This document shows, piece after piece, positions 1-50,514 of a stretch of DNA of 64,000 nt. The stretch is from Candidatus Poseidoniales archaeon (GTDB lineage: Archaea; Thermoplasmatota; Poseidoniia; Poseidoniales; Poseidoniaceae). Both the position numbers and the translations under genes were made by a program. The first letter of the stretch is position 1, and every line of letters begins with the position of its first letter. The DNA lies in the NCBI GenBank assembly GCA_003602645.1, contig QQSI01000040.1, positions 4,152 to 68,151 of the forward strand. Reading direction: 5' to 3'. Under the pieces are notes generated by a model that saw nothing but the letters and a program-made list of their open reading frames with translations, had not been told where the DNA came from and did no database searches.

Positions 1-246
1 GGCGGGAAGGCATTTGGTCTCATGTGCACGTTAGGAGGGATCGAGAATTCGAACACCCTCAACCACATGCGAATTATGCTGCGCTGGCTTCATGCATGGC
101 CTGTGCCAGAACAACTTGCTGTCGGCCATGTCAAAGAAGCATTTGATGAGCACGGAGATTTGGTCCATGAAGCCACAATTGAACGGCTTGAAGGACTTGT
201 GGCCTCAGTCATTCGCACTGCTGCCTTACTCAAAACCAGCCAGTGA
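1..246 (+). CDS. 3' end of an unidentified gene, truncated at the window edge
   Basis: The reading frame is open from position 1 through the ORF listed at 22..246. There is no recognisable domain. The stop overlaps the next gene's start. Confidence 0.3.
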   Translation, partial: GGKAFGLMCTLGGIENSNTLNHMRIMLRWLHAWPVPEQLAVGHVKEAFDEHGDLVHEATIERLEGLVASVIRTAALLKTSQ

Positions 247-251
247 GAAGC

Positions 252-1052
252 ATGCCCTCAACACGCCCCTCGTTTGATGACGCATTTGGTGGCCGTTACC
301 TTTTGGTCGAACCGGGAACCTATCAAATGGGTGATGGTGCTTCTCGTGGGAATAAGAATGAGCGTCCAGCTCACAAAGTGGACATCGACCAACCTTTCTT
401 CTTTGGCGAACGTCCAGTCACTCAGGCTCACTGGCAGGCGATTATGGAGACCAATCCCTCAAAATTTCAAGAGGGTTGGGCTGCGGGTTTGAGGCCAGTT
501 GAAAACGTTTCATGGAATGATGTTCATGTGTTTCTCGCCCGTTTGAATTCCACAGAACAAGAAACCGTTCGACTCGGGTTTACCGGATCATGGCGCCTGC
601 CATCCGAATCGGAATGGGAATATGTGGCTCGTGCGGGTACGGAGACTCGTTGGGCCTTTGGCGATCGAGATTCTGAGCTCAATGACTATGGTTGGCATGC
701 TGGCAATGCAGGAGCAACAACACGAGAAGTCGGGCAAAAGAAAGCAAATCCTTGGGGTTTTCTTGACATGTACGGTCAAACCGGTGAGTGGTGTCAAGAT
801 GATTACAGCAAAAATTATGAGAATCACGATGGCTCACAGTCTCCTCAAATATCAACAGGAGGCGAACGCAAGGTGCACCGAGGGGGCTCTTGGTTCACTG
901 AATCGGATTCCACCCGAAGCAGGGCACGCGCATCCGCAACTAGGACCACACGTAGCGATGGGATAGGGTTTAGGCTCGTTTGGGCGCCCCAAAAGGCCAA
1001 TGTAGAACCTGAAGTTCCCCATAGCAATGACGACCCTGTATCACAACCCTAG
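252..1052 (+). CDS. Formylglycine-generating enzyme (FGE/SUMF1)-domain protein
   Basis: FGE-sulfatase fold hallmarks are present: ERPAHKVDI, FFFGERPVTQAHW, VSWNDV, WRLPSESEWEYVARAG, GNAGATT, ANPWGFLDMYG, EWCQDDY and HRGGSW. The ATG at 252 is preferred over the GTG at 243. Confidence 0.8.
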   Translation: MPSTRPSFDDAFGGRYLLVEPGTYQMGDGASRGNKNERPAHKVDIDQPFFFGERPVTQAHWQAIMETNPSKFQEGWAAGLRPVENVSWNDVHVFLARLNSTEQETVRLGFTGSWRLPSESEWEYVARAGTETRWAFGDRDSELNDYGWHAGNAGATTREVGQKKANPWGFLDMYGQTGEWCQDDYSKNYENHDGSQSPQISTGGERKVHRGGSWFTESDSTRSRARASATRTTRSDGIGFRLVWAPQKANVEPEVPHSNDDPVSQP

Positions 1053-36988: not shown

Positions 36989-37042
36989 TTTTATTGCAAA
37001 TTGCAGTGAACATTGAAGGTCCGAGTAGGCTGGACAACAGAC

Positions 37043-38089
37043 ATGCACCCCCTCGTCGAATGCGTACCTAATATTTCAGAAGGCAGAGATGCTGAGAAAA
37101 TCCAACGGATCGTGGCCGCCGCATCCACATTCGATGGGTGCTCAGTTTTGGGTGTCGAACCTGATGCTGATTACAACCGAACTGTAATCACAATCGCAGG
37201 GTCGCCTGAATCGGTTGCTTCGGCAGCCTTCGCCCTTGTTTCCATGGCCATTGCGGAAATTGATATGCGTTCCCATAGCGGAGAACACCCAAGGCTAGGT
37301 GCCGTCGATGTTTGTCCGTTTGTCCCACTGGCAGACACCACAATGGATCAATGTGCCGAACTTGCAAGATCGCTTGCCAAGCGGGTAGCGGAGGAATTGG
37401 ATGTTCCAACTTTCTTGTACGGTGCAGCGGCCACACATCCTGCAAAATCCCTCCTATCCTCGATTCGCAAAGGTGAATATGAGGGGCTGGAAAATCGCCT
37501 TACAAATGGAAACTCTCCGCATGATGAGCACACCAGATACCCAGATTTTGGTCCAAGAGATTGGTCCGAGGGTGTAGCGCGATCTGGGGGTTTGACGTTT
37601 GGGGCACGAGAAATTCTCGTAGCCTACAATGTTAATTTGAACGAGTCTGACGCGAAAGTAGCTCGTTTGGTTGGGTCATTAGTGCGATCATCCGGCCGTT
37701 TGGTCAAGAAAGACGATGGACGAAGAATGAGGATCCCTGGTTCGTTGCCGATGGTTCAAGGCATGGGTGTCCCTCTGGAATCCCACGGTATTAGTCAAGT
37801 TTCTATGAACCTCAGGGATGTCAATCAGTGCCCAATGCATGTGGCCTTTGAGGCTTGCAAATCAATCGCGATGGACCATGGCGTGGAGGTACCTGGAAGC
37901 GAGGTTGTTGGTCTAGTTCCACTTTCTGCAATTTTGACCGCAGGCCAATGGTATGCCAAGGATGGGGAAACCAATGAATCTGCACTGGTGGACGCGGCCA
38001 TTCGAGGTCTAGGATTGGACAATTTGAATGCGTTTGACCCGAAAGAACGGATTATTGAATATGCACTCAAGGAAGGTGAAATCGAGTGA
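37043..38089 (+). CDS. ftcD: Glutamate formimidoyltransferase (FTCD N-terminal-type domain)
   Basis: LVECVPNISEGRD is the formiminotransferase signature. It lies upstream of a separate cyclodeaminase gene. The ATG at 37043 is preferred over the TTG at 37013. Confidence 0.8.
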   Translation: MHPLVECVPNISEGRDAEKIQRIVAAASTFDGCSVLGVEPDADYNRTVITIAGSPESVASAAFALVSMAIAEIDMRSHSGEHPRLGAVDVCPFVPLADTTMDQCAELARSLAKRVAEELDVPTFLYGAAATHPAKSLLSSIRKGEYEGLENRLTNGNSPHDEHTRYPDFGPRDWSEGVARSGGLTFGAREILVAYNVNLNESDAKVARLVGSLVRSSGRLVKKDDGRRMRIPGSLPMVQGMGVPLESHGISQVSMNLRDVNQCPMHVAFEACKSIAMDHGVEVPGSEVVGLVPLSAILTAGQWYAKDGETNESALVDAAIRGLGLDNLNAFDPKERIIEYALKEGEIE

Positions 38090-38715
38090 ATTGGATGGAT
38101 CTCACTCTAGAAGAGTTCCAGAACCATCTGGCGTCAGACGATCCAACTCCGGGGGGTGGCACCGCAGCAGCAATTGCCTTGGGTCAAGCGGCAGCACTCA
38201 CCGAAATGGTTGCTGGCCTAACATTGGGTAGAGAAAAATGGCAATCTGGGTGGGTTGCTGCTGAAACTGCTCGTGCGGTAGCACGACGGGTCATGGTGCG
38301 TTCAGGTGAACTCGCCAAAGAAGACAGTCAGGCCTTCGACTCTGTGGTTGCCGGATTTAAAATGCCAAAATCAACGGAGGAAGAAAAGGATGCTCGTCGG
38401 CAATCCATTCGGCTTGCGACCTTGCATGCTGCCGAGGTACCATTAGCGACATCCCAGCATGGAATGGAATTGCTGAATGTCCTTTCAAGTTTAGCAACCC
38501 ATGGCAATGCAAATGCTGCTTCTGACGTAGGAGTGGCCTCCCTTCTTGCCAGTGCGGCAGTCAAGGGTGCACTTTTCAACGTGGACATCAATGTAGCAGC
38601 ACTTCCGGTTGATATGGCCCAGCATGTCATCGAACAGTGCGCTGGGATGCGTGAAGAATGCAGCAGAATCTCACGCCTCGTCATGCATGCGGTTCATGAG
38701 AGGATTAATTCTTGA
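38086..38715 (+). CDS. Formimidoyltetrahydrofolate cyclodeaminase (FTCD C-terminal-type domain)
   Basis: PTPGGGTAAAIALGQAAAL is the cyclodeaminase motif. Its start is coupled to the stop of the formimidoyltransferase gene. Confidence 0.75.
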   Translation: MNWMDLTLEEFQNHLASDDPTPGGGTAAAIALGQAAALTEMVAGLTLGREKWQSGWVAAETARAVARRVMVRSGELAKEDSQAFDSVVAGFKMPKSTEEEKDARRQSIRLATLHAAEVPLATSQHGMELLNVLSSLATHGNANAASDVGVASLLASAAVKGALFNVDINVAALPVDMAQHVIEQCAGMREECSRISRLVMHAVHERINS

Positions 38716-43269: not shown

Positions 43270-44175
43270 TCACTGAGGTGAGGCTTCTTTGGAAGCCTCC
43301 TCTTTCTTATCGTCTTTCCCTGTGGTGGTTTCTTTGGTGGCATCCTTAGGTGAATCCTCTTGTGCGAGGGCTGCTTCCTTCTTTTCAGCACGCCTCTTAG
43401 CAGCTTTTTCTTGGCGCTTTTGGAAGGAGTCACCGAAGTTTGCCATGCTTTCAAGCCGTAGGGCGATGCCAGAGAGTTCCTCATCCTCTGCACGGACATA
43501 TTTGACAAGGTAGGCGCCAAACAACATGTCGTAGAGGCCTTGATTTTGGTCGCTGTTTTTCTTGAATCTGCCATCAATAATGCGGATTGAGAACAAGATG
43601 ATACCCAGGACAAGCAATCCGATGGCAACTGGGTTGGCTTTACCTGCCGTGTCGAAGAGGTTACCCATGTTGATAATGACCAATGATAATCCTACAAGCG
43701 CCATCAGTCCTACCGAATTGACAAGGAATCCATGCAATGGGTTAGGTTTGGCATCTGCTGATGTGATGTAGCGCGTTCTTGACATGAAATTTCCAAGTGT
43801 TCGACCGGTCATAATCGGGATAACAAATACATTTGTGATGATCATCAGGAGTGCTCCAATAGCGGGTATGGTAGGGGTCGAGCCCATGACTGAGAGGAAA
43901 ATGGCTCCAAAGAGGACACCGAAATTCCAGATGAAATTCATCAACCAGGCTAAAAATCTAGAGTTTTGTGTGGCAATTTCATACCCTTCAGGGAGTCCAG
44001 CAGTGCTTAATTTGGGTTTCTTAACACGTGGTGCACGAGGGGTTTTTTCAGCCTTTGCGGCCTTGACAGGTTTTGCGACAGCAGTGGCTTTTTTGGGTAT
44101 AGCTTTGGCCACTGCCTTTTTGGGCGCTTCCTTTGTTTCACTGCCTGCTGTGTTTGCCTTGTCTAGTAGTCCCAT
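43270..44175 (-). CDS. RDD-family membrane protein with Lys/Ala/Pro-rich N- and C-terminal tails
   Basis: The RDD-like core carries conserved Arg and Asp positions (ATQNSRFLAWLMN, GRTLGNFMSRTRYI, GLYDMLFGAYLV). A histone-H1-like N-terminal tail (KEAPKKAVAKAIPKKATAVAKPVKAAKAEK) and a basic C-terminal tail flank it. The start lies 5-8 nt from the stop of the upstream gene. Confidence 0.6.
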   Translation of the reverse strand: MGLLDKANTAGSETKEAPKKAVAKAIPKKATAVAKPVKAAKAEKTPRAPRVKKPKLSTAGLPEGYEIATQNSRFLAWLMNFIWNFGVLFGAIFLSVMGSTPTIPAIGALLMIITNVFVIPIMTGRTLGNFMSRTRYITSADAKPNPLHGFLVNSVGLMALVGLSLVIINMGNLFDTAGKANPVAIGLLVLGIILFSIRIIDGRFKKNSDQNQGLYDMLFGAYLVKYVRAEDEELSGIALRLESMANFGDSFQKRQEKAAKRRAEKKEAALAQEDSPKDATKETTTGKDDKKEEASKEASPQ

Positions 44176-44180
44176 TGTGG

Positions 44181-45173
44181 TCACTCACCCTTGTACTGTG
44201 CGCCAATTGCGCTGTAAATTTGGAAGTTCTCAGAAGCAACAAAGGCATCGATGTCGGCTTCGGCCATGTTGCCAAGTTGGCCGTCAACGATGGTAAAGAA
44301 GGCCGTCCTCATTTCGTCACTGGAGTTTTGAGGATCACTTCCGACGGCTTCGTAGATTGCAAAATCTTCACTGCCCACGAACGTGGTGACGACCTCTTCC
44401 GGCAAATTTGATCCAAGGAGATCATCCACGATTGCGACAAAAGTGACAAACATGTCATCAGTTTGCTCTGTTTCGTTGGATATTGGTTGTGCAGTGGTCA
44501 CGTCAGCGGTGTCCCCAGCAATCATGGCTTGAAGTGATTTACGTTCGGCCATTAATGATTCCAAAACTGGACGAAGTTCTGCAAGAACTTGAGCGTCCCC
44601 GGCAACCTTTGCTGCTTGATATTCAGGTTTCAATGAACGCAATTCATCTTCAATCATGGTTAACTGACTTTGGAGTTCATTTTCAGCAGTCTCTGATTCA
44701 AGGAGTTCGACGACTGGAGCATCTCGAACCTCTGATATTTTCCCTTCATGTTCTTGCTTGCGTAAAACGATGATGTCCCTGTCGAGTGCATGACCAAATC
44801 GGTCGGCATATCGGTCCAATAGTGAACCAGCGTCCGCAGAGGAAATTCGATCAATGTGCCCATAAATTTGTGGGAGTGGTTTATCCGATCGCTTGGCCCA
44901 CAGGTCGCCATATTTGTCAGACACTGGAGTTTTAGGTGTTGCAGCGAGACTGTCATTGTTCCAAACTGAAGCCTCTGCAGGCACTGGAAGGGGTGCGTCT
45001 GGAAGCGGAAGGCTTGGTTCAGCAGCCGGTGCGGGTGGCAATGGAAGGGGGGGGTTGTCCGGAGAGGCGCCTGGCGGTGCTGGCAGAGGTGGCATACCGG
45101 GCAATGGCGGCAATGGTAGACCTGGTGTTGGTGCGGCTGGAGCCTTGTTTTTCTTGCCTTTCCTCAGACCCAT
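44181..45173 (-). CDS. Protein with a polyproline N-terminus, central coiled coil and C-terminal tandem repeats; unknown function
   Basis: The N-terminus is PAAPTPGLPLPPLPGMPPLPAPPGASPDNPPLPLPPAPAAEPSLPLPDAPLPVP. The central region (ELQSQLTMIEDELRSLKPEYQAAKVAG...) is helical with a heptad-like pattern. A duplicated C-terminal module is present: EEVVTTFVGSEDFAIYEAVG and ADIDAFVASENFQIYSAIG. The ATG is at 45173. Confidence 0.5.
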   Translation of the reverse strand: MGLRKGKKNKAPAAPTPGLPLPPLPGMPPLPAPPGASPDNPPLPLPPAPAAEPSLPLPDAPLPVPAEASVWNNDSLAATPKTPVSDKYGDLWAKRSDKPLPQIYGHIDRISSADAGSLLDRYADRFGHALDRDIIVLRKQEHEGKISEVRDAPVVELLESETAENELQSQLTMIEDELRSLKPEYQAAKVAGDAQVLAELRPVLESLMAERKSLQAMIAGDTADVTTAQPISNETEQTDDMFVTFVAIVDDLLGSNLPEEVVTTFVGSEDFAIYEAVGSDPQNSSDEMRTAFFTIVDGQLGNMAEADIDAFVASENFQIYSAIGAQYKGE

Positions 45174-45269
45174 GTGGTTCACCCCTAAACCTGTGGATGG
45201 TAGCGCGGTCTTGAACCTTACCTCAAGAAGTGGTGACGAAAAGCGTAGTTGTCAAACGAATTATTTTCG

Positions 45270-46525: not shown

Positions 46526-46735
46526 TTATTCGTTGGTCATCCAGAAGCGTTCTTCTGCTTCACCGACCGCGGTCGCGGTGTCAGCACCGGTTGTTTCGAC
46601 GTAGTGCTCCCAACACATGTAGAACTTACCAACGGCCATAGCGTTGCCAAAAGTGAGGCGAATGCCGCAGGACTCGCAACGAGGGCCAATTTCACCGTTT
46701 GGTGCTTGGGCGAGAGTGATGTGTTCGTGTGGCAT
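46526..46735 (-). CDS. Hypothetical small Cys/His-containing protein
   Basis: A 69-aa ORF from the ATG at 46735: MPHEHITLAQAPNGEIGPRCESCGIRL...MCWEHY, with possible metal ligands C, C, C and H. The function is unknown. Confidence 0.3.
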   Translation of the reverse strand: MPHEHITLAQAPNGEIGPRCESCGIRLTFGNAMAVGKFYMCWEHYVETTGADTATAVGEAEERFWMTNE

Positions 46736-46794
46736 TGCTGTCCCCTTGTTATGGCTGTGGGCGCTCAAGTCTTTGAACTTGAGCCTTGTTGGGA

Positions 46795-47277
46795 TTACCA
46801 ACTGGTCTCTTCCCATTGGGGTGATTTACACCATTGGAGCAAATCGAGAGCGACCTCGCAAGATTCTGCAACTTCTGGATTTGGATCGTTGAGGTGGGCT
46901 TTGAGCACCGGCAAGACGCTCAGATCACCAATCGCTCCCATTGCTTCGGCCGCTTCGTGTCGGACCATGACATGCTCCTTATCGTCGCTGAGCCTTTCAA
47001 TGAGAGTAGGGAGGGCGGTTGGGTTTTGCATTTGACCAAGGACATAGGCGAGTTCATGACGCAGCAAAGCACTGCTTGAAAAAAATGCACTACACAATGC
47101 TAGGCAAGCTTCGTCCGACCCGTCGTTGCGAAGGGAGAACACTGTTCGCATTCGCTGAAACATTGGTGCGTTTTCATCCATTAAAAGAGCAGACCACTCT
47201 TTGAGTGTACCCACATTCTGTGGAGGGGCGGGGTCAACCGAACCATATTGGCTCACTCCAGGTGCCCGTTCAGTCAT
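46795..47277 (-). CDS. Deoxyhypusine hydroxylase (DOHH)-like half-protein: HEAT repeats with two His-Glu iron-ligand motifs
   Basis: VDPAPP, FSLRNDG, SALLRHELAYVLGQMQ, HVMVRHEAAEAMGAIGD and ESCEVALD align almost residue for residue with the C-terminal half of eukaryotic DOHH, including both HE dyads. The protein is only about 160 aa. The ATG is at 47277. Confidence 0.7.
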   Translation of the reverse strand: MTERAPGVSQYGSVDPAPPQNVGTLKEWSALLMDENAPMFQRMRTVFSLRNDGSDEACLALCSAFFSSSALLRHELAYVLGQMQNPTALPTLIERLSDDKEHVMVRHEAAEAMGAIGDLSVLPVLKAHLNDPNPEVAESCEVALDLLQWCKSPQWEETSW

Positions 47278-47289
47278 ACACCTCACCAC

Positions 47290-48177
47290 TCAGGACTCAT
47301 CGGAGCCAATAAATTGCATGTCTCCGGGCTTGAACGCTGGATCAATGAGTCCGATTTCTTGGCCTTCTGTGATAAATTGCCGGATGGAAGCGCGTCCTTC
47401 TTTCTTGTAATCGATGGTGCGGTCATTGACGTACATGCTCACAAATTCCTTATTGGTGTCATCATCAATGCCTCTGCCCCACTTTTTGGCAAATTCAAGT
47501 GCTTCAGCAGGTGATTTCAGAGCATACTCAATGCTCATTTTGGTGTACTTAGTGATGTCTTCCATTGCTTGTGCTCCAAGATCTCGACGGACGACATTGC
47601 CTCCAAGCGGCATAGGCCAACCGCCGGTTCGTTCGTTCCACCAAACACCAAGATCAATATGCACGTGAAGGTCGTGATCAACATAGGTCAGTTGGCCTTC
47701 GTGAATGATGAGACCACTCAAGTAGGTTCCATCGAGGATGCGTGGGATGATTTCATCGAAGGGAACAACGGCAACTTCGCAGTCACCCCATGCCAGACGC
47801 AGCCCCATGTAGGCACTTGTTTTGAGGCCAGGGACGGCGATGATGTTGCTTCGGACATCTGATTCGCTTGCGCCCTGCATTGAAACAACCATTGGACCAT
47901 ACCCCTCACCCATCGAGGCACCACAATTCATCAAAGCATAATTCTCGGAAATTTCTGGGAATGCGTGGATGGAGACTGCTGAAACTTCAAGGTCGCAATT
48001 CATTGCGCGGTGGTTGAGTGTTTCGATGTCTTGCAGTTCGTGTACGAAGTGGTAGCCAGGAGTTGGAAAGGCACCAGTGGTCATTGCGTGGAACATAAAG
48101 GCGTCATCTGGGTCCGGAGAGTGTCCGATTCGAACAATTTTGTTGCCGTCTTCATCAAGGGGTAATTGAGCCACCAT
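47290..48177 (-). CDS. mqnD: 1,4-dihydroxy-6-naphthoate synthase MqnD (futalosine pathway)
   Basis: VRIGHSPDPDDAFMFHAM, AVPGLKTSAYMGLRLA, LIIHEGQLTY and WWNERTGGWPMPLGGNVVRRDLG match the MqnD family closely. The ATG at 48177 is preferred over the TTG at 48210. Confidence 0.8.
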   Translation of the reverse strand: MVAQLPLDEDGNKIVRIGHSPDPDDAFMFHAMTTGAFPTPGYHFVHELQDIETLNHRAMNCDLEVSAVSIHAFPEISENYALMNCGASMGEGYGPMVVSMQGASESDVRSNIIAVPGLKTSAYMGLRLAWGDCEVAVVPFDEIIPRILDGTYLSGLIIHEGQLTYVDHDLHVHIDLGVWWNERTGGWPMPLGGNVVRRDLGAQAMEDITKYTKMSIEYALKSPAEALEFAKKWGRGIDDDTNKEFVSMYVNDRTIDYKKEGRASIRQFITEGQEIGLIDPAFKPGDMQFIGSDES

Positions 48178-48345
48178 GATGCCTCGACTGGCGCGCCCTT
48201 GATGAACCAACCGCTAATTTTTCCTGATTTCTTCTTTTCCTGCATTGGTGATGCATTCACCGATTTGTTTTCAGTGTTGATTGATTCATCTGGGTCCAAG
48301 GGGAGTCGTGGTTTGGGCGTCAAGGCAACTGGTTGCATTGCATTT

Positions 48346-50514
48346 ATGCTGTTGGTGATGCTCTCCACGCCAGTGGCCTCGAGCGCGTCAACCATTTCGT
48401 TCACAGGCACCACGACCGTTGAAACCACCGACGGATCCTCGGCCTTAGCTATTGATTCGGACATGAACTACCTCGCAAGCGGTTACGATGACCACATGGC
48501 CATCATGTGGTTGGATAATCTATCGCTGATTGATATCATTGAAGTGGATCGACCCGTGGAATCACTGGAGTTTTCACCGGATGGCTCTCTCTTGGCTATT
48601 GCCATATCAGGGTCGGAAACAAAGGAGGACACCATTCAATTATTTGATGTCGAATCCATGACTCTGAGCCAAAAGCAACAATCGGCTAACGCTCGCCCAG
48701 TGGACATTGCCTGGTCGCCAGATGGGTTGCTACTTGCGGTTCCAAACGCGAATAATGGTATTGATTTAATCCGTATTTCTGATATGGAAATAGAGCGGAG
48801 TTTGACTGGCGAACACAATACAGACGTGACTTGTATTGGATTCACAAGCAACGGTGGGCATGTTATCAGCGGTGATGAATCGGGGCGAATGGTGATGTGG
48901 AACGTCGATGGTACTCCGACAGCAAAAAAATGGGAGTTTGGAAATGAACTCAAAACATGTTCTTTTGACCCAACCGACACACGCATCGCATCGCTTACGG
49001 TCGACGGTGCATTGAACACGCTTTCTTTTTCCGGTGGTGATTTACAAAGCGCTCAATTTACCTCAGGAGGTGGCTTGAGTTGGTCGTATGAAGGGACCTA
49101 CATACATTTGACAGAAAATGGCGATGCTCCACGATTGCTGACATTGGATGCCTCCACATTTGAACAAGTGGAATCGACCTACATGGCTCACCAAGTGTTG
49201 GATATTGCCACGATCGAAAATCAATACGGTTTGGTTCAAGAATTCTATGCAGCAACCAACACCCTCCATTTGGCGAGGTATGGTAGCCATGCTGTCCCCG
49301 AAGGAATGGGGGTTGCTGGAGCAGACCTCGATGGTGATGGCATACCGGATTCACTCGACGATGATGATGACGGTGATGCGATCTTTGATCAATGGGATAC
49401 GTATTGCGGTGAGGTTGAAACAGATTGTGCACGCTCCCCCCATGAAGACCACATTCGTTCGGTTTCGATTCAATTGAACGCCACACATATGACGATTAAT
49501 GACAGGATCAAATTGGACATCGTCCTATCCTCTTCAATCAGAAATATGTCGAGAATTTCTATTATTGAGGATGCTCAGCTCAGTGGGAGCGAAACCGAAT
49601 TGTTTGCCCAATCCGTTTGTGCTAACCATGATGAGAGCAGAATCCTTGAACAATGGAAAGATACACTGATGCTTTCAGAAGGCCAATTGGAAGGTGGAAT
49701 AGTAACCTGTGCCGTCAGCGAAGGCATGACGCTCAGAGCACAAAATGATTTCAAAACTCACATCGGTGTTGAATACACGATTTCGTTCAACCTTTCCTCT
49801 GCACCGATTTTCCCGTTCACAGTTGCATTCGAAGAGCAACCTATCGCCACTGATGCCTCATTATCCCATCTTGCAGAAATGCATCCTATTCATGTGACGC
49901 TTTCTGCAAAGGGAGCGAATGATGTCGAATTGTCTCCATGGTGGACCACAGAATCTCCTTTGGAACTCACTTTGGAGGAACGCGTGGTCAAAGAACCAAC
50001 CTTGACACAGAAAGGAGTGGATTTATTCGCGAATTATCCAATTCTTTTTGTCTTCGTTCTTGCCTTCCTTGCTGGAGGCATCGTGCTCGTATTGAGGACA
50101 AAAAACACAATGGGTATGGATCTCAACATCTTTGACGAAGAGGATGATGAGCCGAGTCGCGATGAAGACGAGGATGAATCAAGCACCTCAATCGAAGAGG
50201 AAGCTTCACTTGAAGTCCCTCTTGCCGAGCCGGAACAAGCAAAACCCGTCGAATCAAAAACGAATGTAAGGGACACAACGACCGACCATCCAGTTCAGAC
50301 CAAAAAACGCAGGAAAGTGAGCCAACGCACCTCCAGAGAGGGCCCGATTACAACAGTGAAGAGAAAGCGCTTGGATGGTGGAGAAGAACCTCCTGTTCAG
50401 AAAAGAGCAACCAGCAAAAAGCGAATTGTCAAACCCAACACGTCGACAAAGCGGAAGACAAGAAGGGTCGTAACTCAATCCGACAAAGAAGAAGACACTT
50501 CACCAGGCGAATGA
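48346..50514 (+). CDS. Membrane-anchored extracellular WD40/beta-propeller protein with an Asp-rich calcium-binding-like loop and a basic cytoplasmic tail
   Basis: The signal peptide is MLLVMLSTPVASSAS. WD-like blades are present (LEFSPDGSLLAIA, IAWSPDGLLLAV, CIGFTSNGGHVISGDESGRMVMWNV). A DLDGDGIPDSLDDDDDGD loop follows. A C-terminal TM helix (ILFVFVLAFLAGGIVLVL) leads into a K/R-rich tail. The ATG is at 48346. Confidence 0.65.
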   Translation: MLLVMLSTPVASSASTISFTGTTTVETTDGSSALAIDSDMNYLASGYDDHMAIMWLDNLSLIDIIEVDRPVESLEFSPDGSLLAIAISGSETKEDTIQLFDVESMTLSQKQQSANARPVDIAWSPDGLLLAVPNANNGIDLIRISDMEIERSLTGEHNTDVTCIGFTSNGGHVISGDESGRMVMWNVDGTPTAKKWEFGNELKTCSFDPTDTRIASLTVDGALNTLSFSGGDLQSAQFTSGGGLSWSYEGTYIHLTENGDAPRLLTLDASTFEQVESTYMAHQVLDIATIENQYGLVQEFYAATNTLHLARYGSHAVPEGMGVAGADLDGDGIPDSLDDDDDGDAIFDQWDTYCGEVETDCARSPHEDHIRSVSIQLNATHMTINDRIKLDIVLSSSIRNMSRISIIEDAQLSGSETELFAQSVCANHDESRILEQWKDTLMLSEGQLEGGIVTCAVSEGMTLRAQNDFKTHIGVEYTISFNLSSAPIFPFTVAFEEQPIATDASLSHLAEMHPIHVTLSAKGANDVELSPWWTTESPLELTLEERVVKEPTLTQKGVDLFANYPILFVFVLAFLAGGIVLVLRTKNTMGMDLNIFDEEDDEPSRDEDEDESSTSIEEEASLEVPLAEPEQAKPVESKTNVRDTTTDHPVQTKKRRKVSQRTSREGPITTVKRKRLDGGEEPPVQKRATSKKRIVKPNTSTKRKTRRVVTQSDKEEDTSPGE

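What the first reader, a model, noticed from the sequence alone, without database searches (positions are those of the whole stretch)
46795..47277. Half-size deoxyhypusine hydroxylase homologue (single HE-HEAT module) in an archaeal genome
The roughly 160-aa protein aligns almost residue for residue with the C-terminal half of eukaryotic DOHH. The matching elements are the linker VDPAPP, SALLRHELAYVLGQMQ, MVRHEAAEAMGAIGD and ESCEVALD, so it carries exactly two of the four His-Glu diiron-ligand dyads. Eukaryotic DOHH is an internal tandem duplication of such a module. Archaea are generally thought to lack DOHH, although some hypusinate aIF5A. A single-module protein would have to homodimerise to build a four-HE diiron site. 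It could be a pre-duplication or minimal form of the hydroxylase, or an enzyme with a different substrate. It lies next to futalosine-pathway genes rather than next to deoxyhypusine synthase.
Basis: partly seen in the sequence, partly recalled or inferred. Interest (0 to 1): 0.85.

Follow-up and report, generated by a model that had tools for sequence, protein, structure and literature searches.

The report
Half-size deoxyhypusine hydroxylase in marine archaea
Marine Group II archaea carry a 160-residue protein that equals one half of the eukaryotic enzyme that finishes the hypusine modification of translation factor 5A; it probably works as a pair of identical halves, and archaea were thought to lack this enzyme.

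Summary
Window 46795-47277 (-) encodes a 160-aa protein that matches human deoxyhypusine hydroxylase (DOHH, PDB 4D4Z) at E = 9.5e-70. It carries two His-Glu motifs and the SVDPAPP linker motif. An MqnD-like gene abuts its start, so it is truly half-size and not a fragment.

The family is conserved at 157-177 aa, in one copy per genome, in both families of Poseidoniales (Marine Group II). 393 GTDB species genomes gave a match.

Over the 123-column core the protein is as N-like as it is C-like (21.5 versus 20.9 discriminating columns). It does not nest inside the sampled eukaryotic halves in a weakly supported tree. It therefore probably split off before the last eukaryotic common ancestor, either before or just after the internal duplication.

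An AlphaFold model of two copies in tandem reproduces the two-lobed DOHH structure (pTM 0.86, TM 0.90 to 4D4Z).

Best explanation: a homodimeric, single-module diiron hydroxylase that converts deoxyhypusine to hypusine on aIF5A. This is inferred, not shown.

The gene is always fused in an operon-like pair with mqnD, which remains unexplained. The papers I found state that archaea have no DOHH orthologue.

The parts
46795..47277 (-). Coding sequence of the single-module (half-size) DOHH homologue. It is 160 aa from the ATG; an in-frame GTG at 47289 would add 4 residues.
   Evidence: ORF list. PDB phmmer gives E = 9.5e-70 to human DOHH. Pfam finds HEAT_2 and HEAT_PBS only. Homologues start at the same Met.
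47221..47253 (-). N-terminal arm SQYGSVDPAPP (residues 9-19). It is homologous to the interdomain linker of eukaryotic DOHH.
   Evidence: Translation. S13-P18 are invariant in the family. In 87 eukaryotic linkers D-P is 100% conserved and A and P are 90-92% conserved. The motif is absent from eukaryotic N termini.
47053..47058 (-). First His-Glu motif, H74-E75. It aligns with human H56-E57 and H207-E208. G81 (47035-47037) aligns with the substrate-binding glycines.
   Evidence: Translation. Alignment to 4D4Z. Invariant in the family. Residue roles are taken from PMC9117371.
46954..46959 (-). Second His-Glu motif, H107-E108, within MVRHEAAEA. It aligns with human H89-E90 and H240-E241.
   Evidence: Translation. 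Alignment to 4D4Z. Invariant in the family.
47290..48210 (-). MqnD-like gene (homologue of 1,4-dihydroxy-6-naphthoate synthase). It lies immediately upstream on the same strand, and its stop codon is followed within 12 nt by the half-DOHH ATG. It is the conserved operon-like partner and is listed here as context; it has not been shown to be part of the mechanism.
   Evidence: Pfam VitK2_biosynth, E = 6.9e-61. PDB hits are 2CZL/3A3U (TTHA1568, a menaquinone biosynthetic enzyme) and 1ZBM. The pair is kept in 80/80 Poseidoniaceae loci and in the rearranged Thalassarchaeaceae loci.

Best explanation
The gene encodes a single-module deoxyhypusine hydroxylase. The protein has one lobe of four HEAT-like helical hairpins, an N-terminal SVDPAPP arm, and two His-Glu motifs.

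Proposed mechanism (inferred): two identical chains pack face to face in the same two-lobed dyad that the N and C halves of eukaryotic DOHH form within one chain. By analogy with human H56/H89/E90 and H207/H240/E241, each chain gives H74, H107 and E108 to one iron. The dimer therefore holds a non-haem diiron centre that activates O2. E75 and G81 of each chain would bind the aminobutyl side chain. The enzyme would hydroxylate C2 of deoxyhypusine on archaeal aIF5A to give hypusine.

What is shown: the sequence homology, conservation of all ligand and substrate-binding positions, the half size, the single copy per genome, and the distribution across Poseidoniales.

What is inferred: dimerisation, iron binding, and aIF5A as the substrate.

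Evolution: the family probably split from the eukaryotic lineage before the last eukaryotic common ancestor, at or near the internal duplication. It therefore shows, or closely mimics, the state before the two halves were fused.
For: Homology. E = 9.5e-70 to human DOHH, with both halves matched. Identity to eukaryotic halves over 123 core columns is 43-46%.

Conserved residues. The residues equivalent to the six iron-anchoring residues and to E57/E208 and G63/G214 (roles from PMC9117371) are invariant in 25 diverse family members: H74, E75, G81, H107, E108. Twenty core positions are at least 85% identical across N halves, C halves and the archaeal family. Generic giant HEAT proteins that also score well lack HE motifs.

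Truly half-size and under selection. The upstream gene abuts the start. All ~240 listed homologue clusters are 157-196 aa, nearly all 157-177, out of 1082 and 3285 proteins found in the two searches. Identity across the two families of the order is 54-91%. There is one copy per locus and per genome.

Dyad packing. A tandem of two copies is modelled with pLDDT 89.7 and pTM 0.86, although the alignment covered only copy 1 and carried no paired eukaryotic information. The model superposes on 4D4Z over 288 columns (TM 0.81 by query length, 0.90 by target length, rmsd 3.2 A). Ordinary HEAT solenoids reach TM of at most about 0.5.

Not a modern eukaryotic C half. Discriminating columns are 21.5 N-like versus 20.9 C-like, against 34:11 for true N halves and 11:33 for true C halves. 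In two NJ trees, apart from one or two rogue sequences, the family sits on the internode between the N and C clades.
Against: - There is no experimental or direct computational evidence for dimerisation, iron binding or activity. AlphaFold has seen 4D4Z in training and may reproduce it from memory. I could not inspect coordinates, so the convergence of the four HE motifs was not measured.
- The gene is never next to deoxyhypusine synthase or aIF5A in the loci seen. It is always coupled to mqnD, which could point to another substrate.
- These archaea are uncultured, and the modification state of their aIF5A is unknown.
- Crenarchaea that do contain hypusine are reported to have no such homologue. 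This protein therefore cannot be the general archaeal solution.
- Bootstrap support for the tree position is weak: 15-52% for the key bipartitions.
Confidence: 0.6

Rival explanations
1. Same fold and diiron chemistry, but a different substrate. The protein would be a DOHH-type oxygenase that acts in or alongside menaquinone (futalosine-route) biosynthesis, or on another amine or protein, rather than on aIF5A.
For: The gene is joined to the 3' end of mqnD by 2-12 nt in 80/80 Poseidoniaceae loci. The pair also survives in Thalassarchaeaceae, where the flanking genes were inverted and moved. MqnA and a radical-SAM Mqn gene are in the same cluster. No deoxyhypusine synthase or aIF5A is nearby.
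Against: From my own knowledge of the futalosine pathway, no hydroxylation step is known in it. The positions that bind the deoxyhypusine side chain in the human enzyme (E57/E208 and G63/G214 equivalents) are invariant here. Identity of 43-46% to each eukaryotic half over a very long divergence fits an unchanged, highly conserved protein substrate. Tight gene packing is common in these small genomes, so co-transcription need not mean a shared pathway.
Confidence: 0.15
2. Same function, but a different origin. The gene would be the C-terminal half (with linker) of a eukaryotic DOHH, acquired by horizontal transfer and truncated, rather than a lineage that predates or flanks the duplication.
For: - It carries the SVDPAPP arm that in eukaryotes precedes the C half only.
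- The family profile scores C halves higher than N halves in almost all full-length proteins, about 150-175 bits against 100-145 bits.
- Core identity is slightly higher to C (46.3%) than to N (43.3%).
- One NJ tree places the family next to the C clade on a short internode.
- The family has so far been seen only in Poseidoniales, which are not close relatives of eukaryotes.
Against: In the core the family has as many N-specific as C-specific states. The sampled eukaryotic C halves group together without it, apart from one rogue N half in one tree. A donor within crown eukaryotes is therefore unlikely, and only a transfer from a stem eukaryote, or extensive reversal, would fit. Much of the C-half score advantage comes from the arm. 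N halves simply evolve faster: N-N identity is 41% against 48% for C-C. With three clades and no usable outgroup, the order of events cannot be resolved from these data.
Confidence: 0.2
3. A non-catalytic HEAT-repeat protein, such as a scaffold or a phycobilisome-lyase-like adaptor, or a leftover gene fragment.
For: Pfam and NCBIfam recognise only generic HEAT or PBS-lyase repeats. NCBI annotates it as a HEAT repeat domain-containing protein or PBS lyase.
Against: NCBIfam scores for NblB and CpcE are 21 and 19.5 bits, against cut-offs of 300 and 330. The match to DOHH is 237 bits, and both HE motifs are invariant. Generic HEAT proteins lack those motifs. The gene is intact, single-copy and strongly conserved across an entire order, so it is not a fragment.
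Confidence: 0.04

Closest known systems
Eukaryotic deoxyhypusine hydroxylase (DOHH / Lia1 / nero; EC 1.14.99.29; structure 4D4Z)
   Same: - The HEAT-hairpin lobe is the same, with 43-46% identity to each half.
- The His-Glu motifs are embedded in the same sequence contexts (LLRHExAYVLGQ and MVRHEAAEALGAIG).
- The glycine and glutamate that bind the substrate side chain are present.
- The SVDPAPP segment is present.
- A tandem of two copies is predicted to adopt the same two-lobed shell (TM 0.90 to 4D4Z).
   Different: - It has one lobe per polypeptide (160 aa) instead of two (about 300 aa), so two rather than four HE motifs per chain. The active site would have to be built across a homodimer interface and would be strictly symmetric.
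- The SVDPAPP segment is a free N-terminal arm, present twice per dimer, rather than one interdomain linker.
- The host is an archaeon.
- The gene is coupled to mqnD.
PBS-lyase-type HEAT repeat proteins (CpcE/NblB, YibA, designed alphaRep proteins; Pfam PF03130 and PF13646)
   Same: They share the repeat type and the helical hairpin geometry. These are the only families that Pfam and NCBIfam report for this protein.
   Different: They form continuous solenoids without His-Glu motifs and without a metal site. Structural similarity to the tandem model is low (TM 0.5 or less), and NCBIfam scores are far below the cut-offs.
Enzymes whose two-domain form arose by duplication and fusion of a homodimeric ancestor (a general evolutionary pattern, stated from my own knowledge)
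   Same: A symmetric active site at a dyad interface exists as a homodimer in one lineage and as an internally duplicated single chain in another.
   Different: For DOHH no single-module form is described in the papers I could search. The direction of evolution is also not settled here.

Membership tests
Deoxyhypusine hydroxylase (EC 1.14.99.29) | Significant, specific sequence homology to characterised DOHH | tested here: met
   phmmer gives E = 9.5e-70 (237 bits) to human DOHH 4D4Z, with both halves aligned. The top hits among 1.8 billion cluster representatives are ~300-aa two-module proteins. Of the nine looked up by name, the four that carry a name or source are eukaryotic or named DOHH (Plasmodiophora, Trichinella, EukProt, JGI 'deoxyhypusine monooxygenase'); the rest are unnamed metagenome proteins. 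Generic giant HEAT proteins also rank among the top hits.
Deoxyhypusine hydroxylase (EC 1.14.99.29) | Iron-anchoring residues (human H56, H89, E90 / H207, H240, E241) conserved | tested here: met
   H74, H107 and E108 align to these residues and are invariant in 25 diverse members. Roles are taken from PMC9117371. Only one set is present per chain.
Deoxyhypusine hydroxylase (EC 1.14.99.29) | Residues that bind the deoxyhypusine side chain (E57/E208, E90/E241 and the conserved glycines) conserved | tested here: met
   E75, E108 and G81 are invariant.
Deoxyhypusine hydroxylase (EC 1.14.99.29) | Four His-Glu motifs and eight HEAT hairpins in one polypeptide (a symmetrical dyad of two four-repeat lobes) | tested here: not met
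   The chain has 160 aa, two HE motifs and eight helices, which make four hairpins. The upstream gene leaves no room for a second lobe. No second copy is present in the window or in 87 loci. The feature could be met only at the level of a homodimer.
Deoxyhypusine hydroxylase (EC 1.14.99.29) | Two lobes pack into the closed DOHH shell around the metal site | tested here: inconclusive
   The tandem-copy AlphaFold model has pTM 0.86 and TM 0.81/0.90 to 4D4Z. However, it is an artificial fusion, the template fold was in the training data, and the coordinates could not be inspected.
Deoxyhypusine hydroxylase (EC 1.14.99.29) | Binds two Fe per active unit, forms a peroxo-diiron(III) species and hydroxylates deoxyhypusine on IF5A | not testable with these tools
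   This needs biochemistry.
Deoxyhypusine hydroxylase (EC 1.14.99.29) | Co-occurs with deoxyhypusine synthase and IF5A in the genome | not tested
   Neither was found among the window ORFs scanned. [quoted passage not shown] I could not scan a whole Poseidoniales genome.
Phycobilisome lyase / NblB-type HEAT proteins (NCBIfam NF058502, NF045915) | Score above the curated family cut-off | tested here: not met
   The scores are 19.5 and 21.4 bits, against cut-offs of 330 and 300.

The most novel reading that the evidence does not exclude
The Poseidoniales protein is a surviving single-module, homodimeric form of deoxyhypusine hydroxylase that diverged before the tandem duplication that produced the eukaryotic enzyme. 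It is also a genuine archaeal DOHH. If so, the most abundant planktonic archaea of the surface ocean make true hypusine with a eukaryote-type enzyme. The eukaryotic enzyme would then have been built by duplicating and fusing a gene of this kind.
Probability: 0.3. Interest if true: 0.85.

Novelty: new variant of a known kind. Interest (0 to 1): 0.78.

Why it matters
Reviews and primary papers from 2016 to 2021 repeat that no DOHH orthologue exists in any archaeon, which leaves the origin of hypusine in archaea unexplained. Here a clear orthologue at half size is conserved throughout an abundant archaeal order. Automatic pipelines have annotated it ("deoxyhypusine monooxygenase" in JGI, "HEAT repeat protein" in NCBI). 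No paper I could find discusses it.

If it is active, it matters in three ways.
- It gives the first archaeal DOHH and a 160-residue minimal model of this unusual HEAT-repeat diiron oxygenase.
- It provides a natural test of how an asymmetric two-lobed enzyme arose from a symmetric dimer.
- It bears on when and where the full hypusine pathway, a hallmark of eukaryotic translation, was assembled.

All of this can be tested with one small recombinant protein.

Tried and rejected
- Strict signature-position test. Requiring at least 45-60% consensus in both halves and little overlap left only 3 positions, too few to use. I replaced it with a per-column log-odds test that has leave-one-out controls.
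- NJ bootstrap. The three-clade bipartitions received only 15-52% support. The tree position is therefore reported as weak.
- Outgroup rooting with generic HEAT segments. Only one segment covered the core, and it attached to single rogue sequences. Not informative.
- Tandem alignments of family members for AlphaFold.
- The accepted alignment, A4. It turned out to cover only copy 1, because MAFFT put the eukaryotic N halves into insert columns. This makes the model more independent of eukaryotic pairing, but leaves copy 2 without an alignment.
- AFDB Foldseek search for other prokaryotic relatives. The library was unavailable.
- Viral contigs. No copy was found.
- The small ORF downstream (46526-46735). 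I considered it as a partner and rejected it. In Thalassarchaeaceae it moves with PriS, not with the hydroxylase.
- The fragment or pseudogene reading. Rejected.
- Two key DOHH papers (PMC1868894 and PMC1324997) were not held.

Full report
**What is there**

Window 46795..47289 on the minus strand is an open reading frame. The ATG at 47277 gives a 160-residue protein, and this is the start used by its homologues. Pfam sees only generic HEAT repeats: HEAT_2 at E = 1.3e-21 and HEAT_PBS at E = 6.2e-13. NCBIfam gives only far sub-threshold hits to the phycobilisome proteins NblB and CpcE, at 21 and 19.5 bits against cut-offs of 300 and 330.

A search of all PDB sequences gives human deoxyhypusine hydroxylase (DOHH, 4D4Z) at E = 9.5e-70. 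Residues 10-152 align with the C-terminal half plus the interdomain linker (128 bits). Residues 35-156 align with the N-terminal half (109 bits).

The protein has exactly two His-Glu motifs, H74-E75 and H107-E108. They lie in the contexts SALLRHELAYVLGQMQ and MVRHEAAEAMGAIG. It also has an N-terminal segment SQYGSVDPAPP.

**It is truly half-size, not a fragment**

The stop codon of the upstream gene lies 12 nt before the ATG, so there is no room for a second lobe. A profile of the family finds a single hit in the six-frame translation of the window and of each of 87 related loci. Two database searches returned 1082 and 3285 relatives. The ~240 listed are almost all 157-177 residues long; one is 196.

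**Who has it**

The named relatives are Candidatus Poseidoniaceae, Poseidonia sp. and, for the divergent branch at about 55% identity, Candidatus Thalassarchaeaceae. These are the two families of Poseidoniales, also called Marine Group II.

A scan of one genome per prokaryotic species (GTDB) found 393 loci that encode a relative. The best 80 are all Poseidoniales and include the 2.06-Mb MG-II chromosome CM001443.1. Each genome appears once. The one exception is a metagenome-assembled genome with two contigs that show identical synteny, which looks like a mixed bin.

I could not see the other 313 loci. The list from the representative search was cut at 172 bits, which hides half-size hits below about 57% identity. 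Presence outside Poseidoniales is therefore untested. No copy was found in viral contigs.

JGI's pipeline already labels these proteins "deoxyhypusine monooxygenase". NCBI calls them HEAT-repeat proteins or "PBS lyase".

**Conservation of the functional residues**

A review of the human enzyme (PMC9117371) gives the residue roles. H56, H89, E90, H207, H240 and E241 anchor the diiron centre. E57, E90, E208, E241 and two glycines bind the deoxyhypusine side chain. The archaeal equivalents H74, E75, G81, H107 and E108 are invariant in 25 members that span both families.

Twenty core positions are at least 85% identical across eukaryotic N halves, eukaryotic C halves and the archaeal family. The D-P of the arm is 100% conserved in 87 eukaryotic linkers, and the motif is absent from eukaryotic N termini. 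Giant generic HEAT proteins that also score well against the query have no HE motifs.

**Which half is it?**

I split 89 two-module proteins into N and C halves. These came from the representative search. The few with a name or source are eukaryotic (EukProt, Plasmodiophora, Trichinella) or labelled DOHH by JGI. I aligned them with 22 archaeal sequences on the family profile. Mean identity over 123 shared core columns:

| Comparison | Identity |
|---|---|
| archaeal vs N halves | 43.3% |
| archaeal vs C halves | 46.3% |
| N vs C halves | 37.6% |
| N vs N halves | 41.0% |
| C vs C halves | 48.2% |

The archaeal protein is therefore closer to each half than the halves are to each other.

A per-column log-odds test gives the archaeal sequences 21.5 N-like and 20.9 C-like discriminating columns. 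Left-out true N halves score 34:11, and true C halves score 11:33. NJ trees place the family on the internode between the N and C clades and outside the sampled C halves, apart from one rogue N sequence. One tree shows a slight lean toward C. Bootstrap support is weak, and outgroup rooting failed.

The firm conclusion is limited. The protein is not a truncated copy of a modern eukaryotic C half, because it lacks about half of the states that the sampled eukaryotic C halves mostly share. It probably diverged before those states were fixed, that is, before the last eukaryotic common ancestor. Whether that happened just before or just after the duplication cannot be resolved with three clades and no root. 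The arm that makes it look C-like fits both orders of events.

One caveat applies. The eukaryotic sample was chosen by similarity to the query. That may inflate the absolute identities, but it should not affect the balance between N and C.

**Can two copies build the DOHH shell?**

I could not run a multimer prediction, so I submitted two copies in tandem. The natural C-terminal tail plus the N-terminal arm acts as the linker.

- Without an alignment the model was poor (pLDDT 64, pTM 0.53) but already resembled 4D4Z (TM 0.61/0.67).
- With alignment A4 the model reached pLDDT 89.7 and pTM 0.86.
- Inspection showed that A4 covers only copy 1 and carries no paired information from eukaryotic two-lobed proteins.
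- The model superposes on human DOHH over 288 columns with TM 0.81 by query length, TM 0.90 by target length and rmsd 3.2 A. Continuous HEAT solenoids reach TM of at most about 0.5.

This supports a DOHH-like dyad of two identical lobes, with three caveats. The construct is an artificial fusion. The DOHH structure was available to AlphaFold during training. I could not read coordinates to measure the metal-site geometry.

**Genomic context**

The upstream gene is an MqnD homologue. Pfam assigns VitK2_biosynth, and its PDB hits are 2CZL/3A3U and 1ZBM. Further upstream lie MqnA, a chorismate dehydratase, and a radical-SAM MqnC/E-like gene.

The order MqnD, half-DOHH, small ORF, PriS holds in 80/80 and 79/80 Poseidoniaceae loci. 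In Thalassarchaeaceae the PriS block and the MqnA/radical-SAM block have been moved and inverted. MqnD and the half-DOHH nevertheless remain adjacent, with a 2-nt gap. No terminator-like site separates them in the window.

This tight pairing is the main unexplained feature. From my own knowledge, no hydroxylation step is known in the futalosine route. I therefore treat the pairing as probable co-transcription and keep a different-substrate hypothesis as a rival.

No DHS or aIF5A domain was found among the window ORFs scanned. The literature says both are universal in archaea. The gene's GC content is 51.6% against 48.4% for the window, which is unremarkable.

**Literature**

Papers from 2016, 2018 and 2021 state that no DOHH orthologue has been found in archaea, while some archaea contain hypusine. 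Searches that combined DOHH with Marine Group II, Poseidoniales, Asgard, "archaeal", "DOHH-like" and "deoxyhypusine monooxygenase" found no description of a half-size or archaeal DOHH. The library does not hold most subscription papers, so absence there is not proof.

**Verdict**

The finding is real and robust.

The best-supported explanation is a homodimeric single-module deoxyhypusine hydroxylase acting on aIF5A (confidence about 0.6). That it is at least a DOHH-type diiron protein is more likely still. It is a new variant of a known enzyme kind.

It fails the one-chain, four-motif architecture that defines eukaryotic DOHH. It meets every residue-level criterion that could be tested. It contradicts a repeated statement in the field, and one small recombinant protein would make both the archaeal hypusine question and the origin of DOHH directly testable.

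Noticed in passing
window 46526-46735 (-): A conserved 69-aa ORF (MPHEHITLAQAPNGEIGPRCESCG...) lies between the half-DOHH and PriS. It has no Pfam hit (tested as the 96-aa ORF 46526-46816) and no significant PDB match. It is present in 79/80 Poseidoniaceae loci at 65-94% identity. In Thalassarchaeaceae a 65-aa homologue stays next to PriS after the rearrangement. It therefore looks like a primase-associated small protein rather than a partner of the hydroxylase.
   Followed up: partly
window 48166-50514 (+): A 782-aa protein with a WD40 beta-propeller and a highly charged C-terminal region sits on the opposite strand between mqnA and mqnD. It is present in only 35 of 80 related loci. It is absent from the Poseidonia-type loci, where mqnA directly precedes mqnD. 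It looks like an insertion into the mqn cluster.
   Followed up: partly
window 43270-45182 (-): Two adjacent proteins of 304 and 333 aa are rich in Pro, Ala and Lys low-complexity sequence and have no Pfam hit. Both are conserved downstream of PriS in most related loci (62 and 67 of 80), although at only 37-87% identity.
   Followed up: no
L056 and L070 (GTDB genome DAIUCF01, isolate CTOTU8138): This is the only genome with two copies of the gene. They lie on separate contigs with the same MqnD, small-ORF and PriS synteny, at 70% and 68% identity to the query. The most likely cause is two populations binned together, not a paralogue.
   Followed up: partly
window 37013-38715 (+) and 243-1052 (+): One ORF carries formiminotransferase domains (FTCD_N and FTCD, E = 4e-64). 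In related loci the next ORF carries FTCD_C. A separate ORF carries an FGE-sulfatase (sulfatase-modifying factor) domain. The latter belongs to another O2-dependent enzyme family that was discussed alongside DOHH in the oxidase-evolution paper read.
   Followed up: no
alignment A4 (inspected): When a self-concatenated query is aligned with two-module eukaryotic DOHHs, MAFFT aligns the eukaryotic C half (with linker) to copy 1 and pushes the N halves into insert columns. AlphaFold then receives no alignment for copy 2. This is worth knowing when reading the pLDDT of the two SVDPAPP arms: 71-89 in copy 1 against 44-56 in copy 2.
   Followed up: yes
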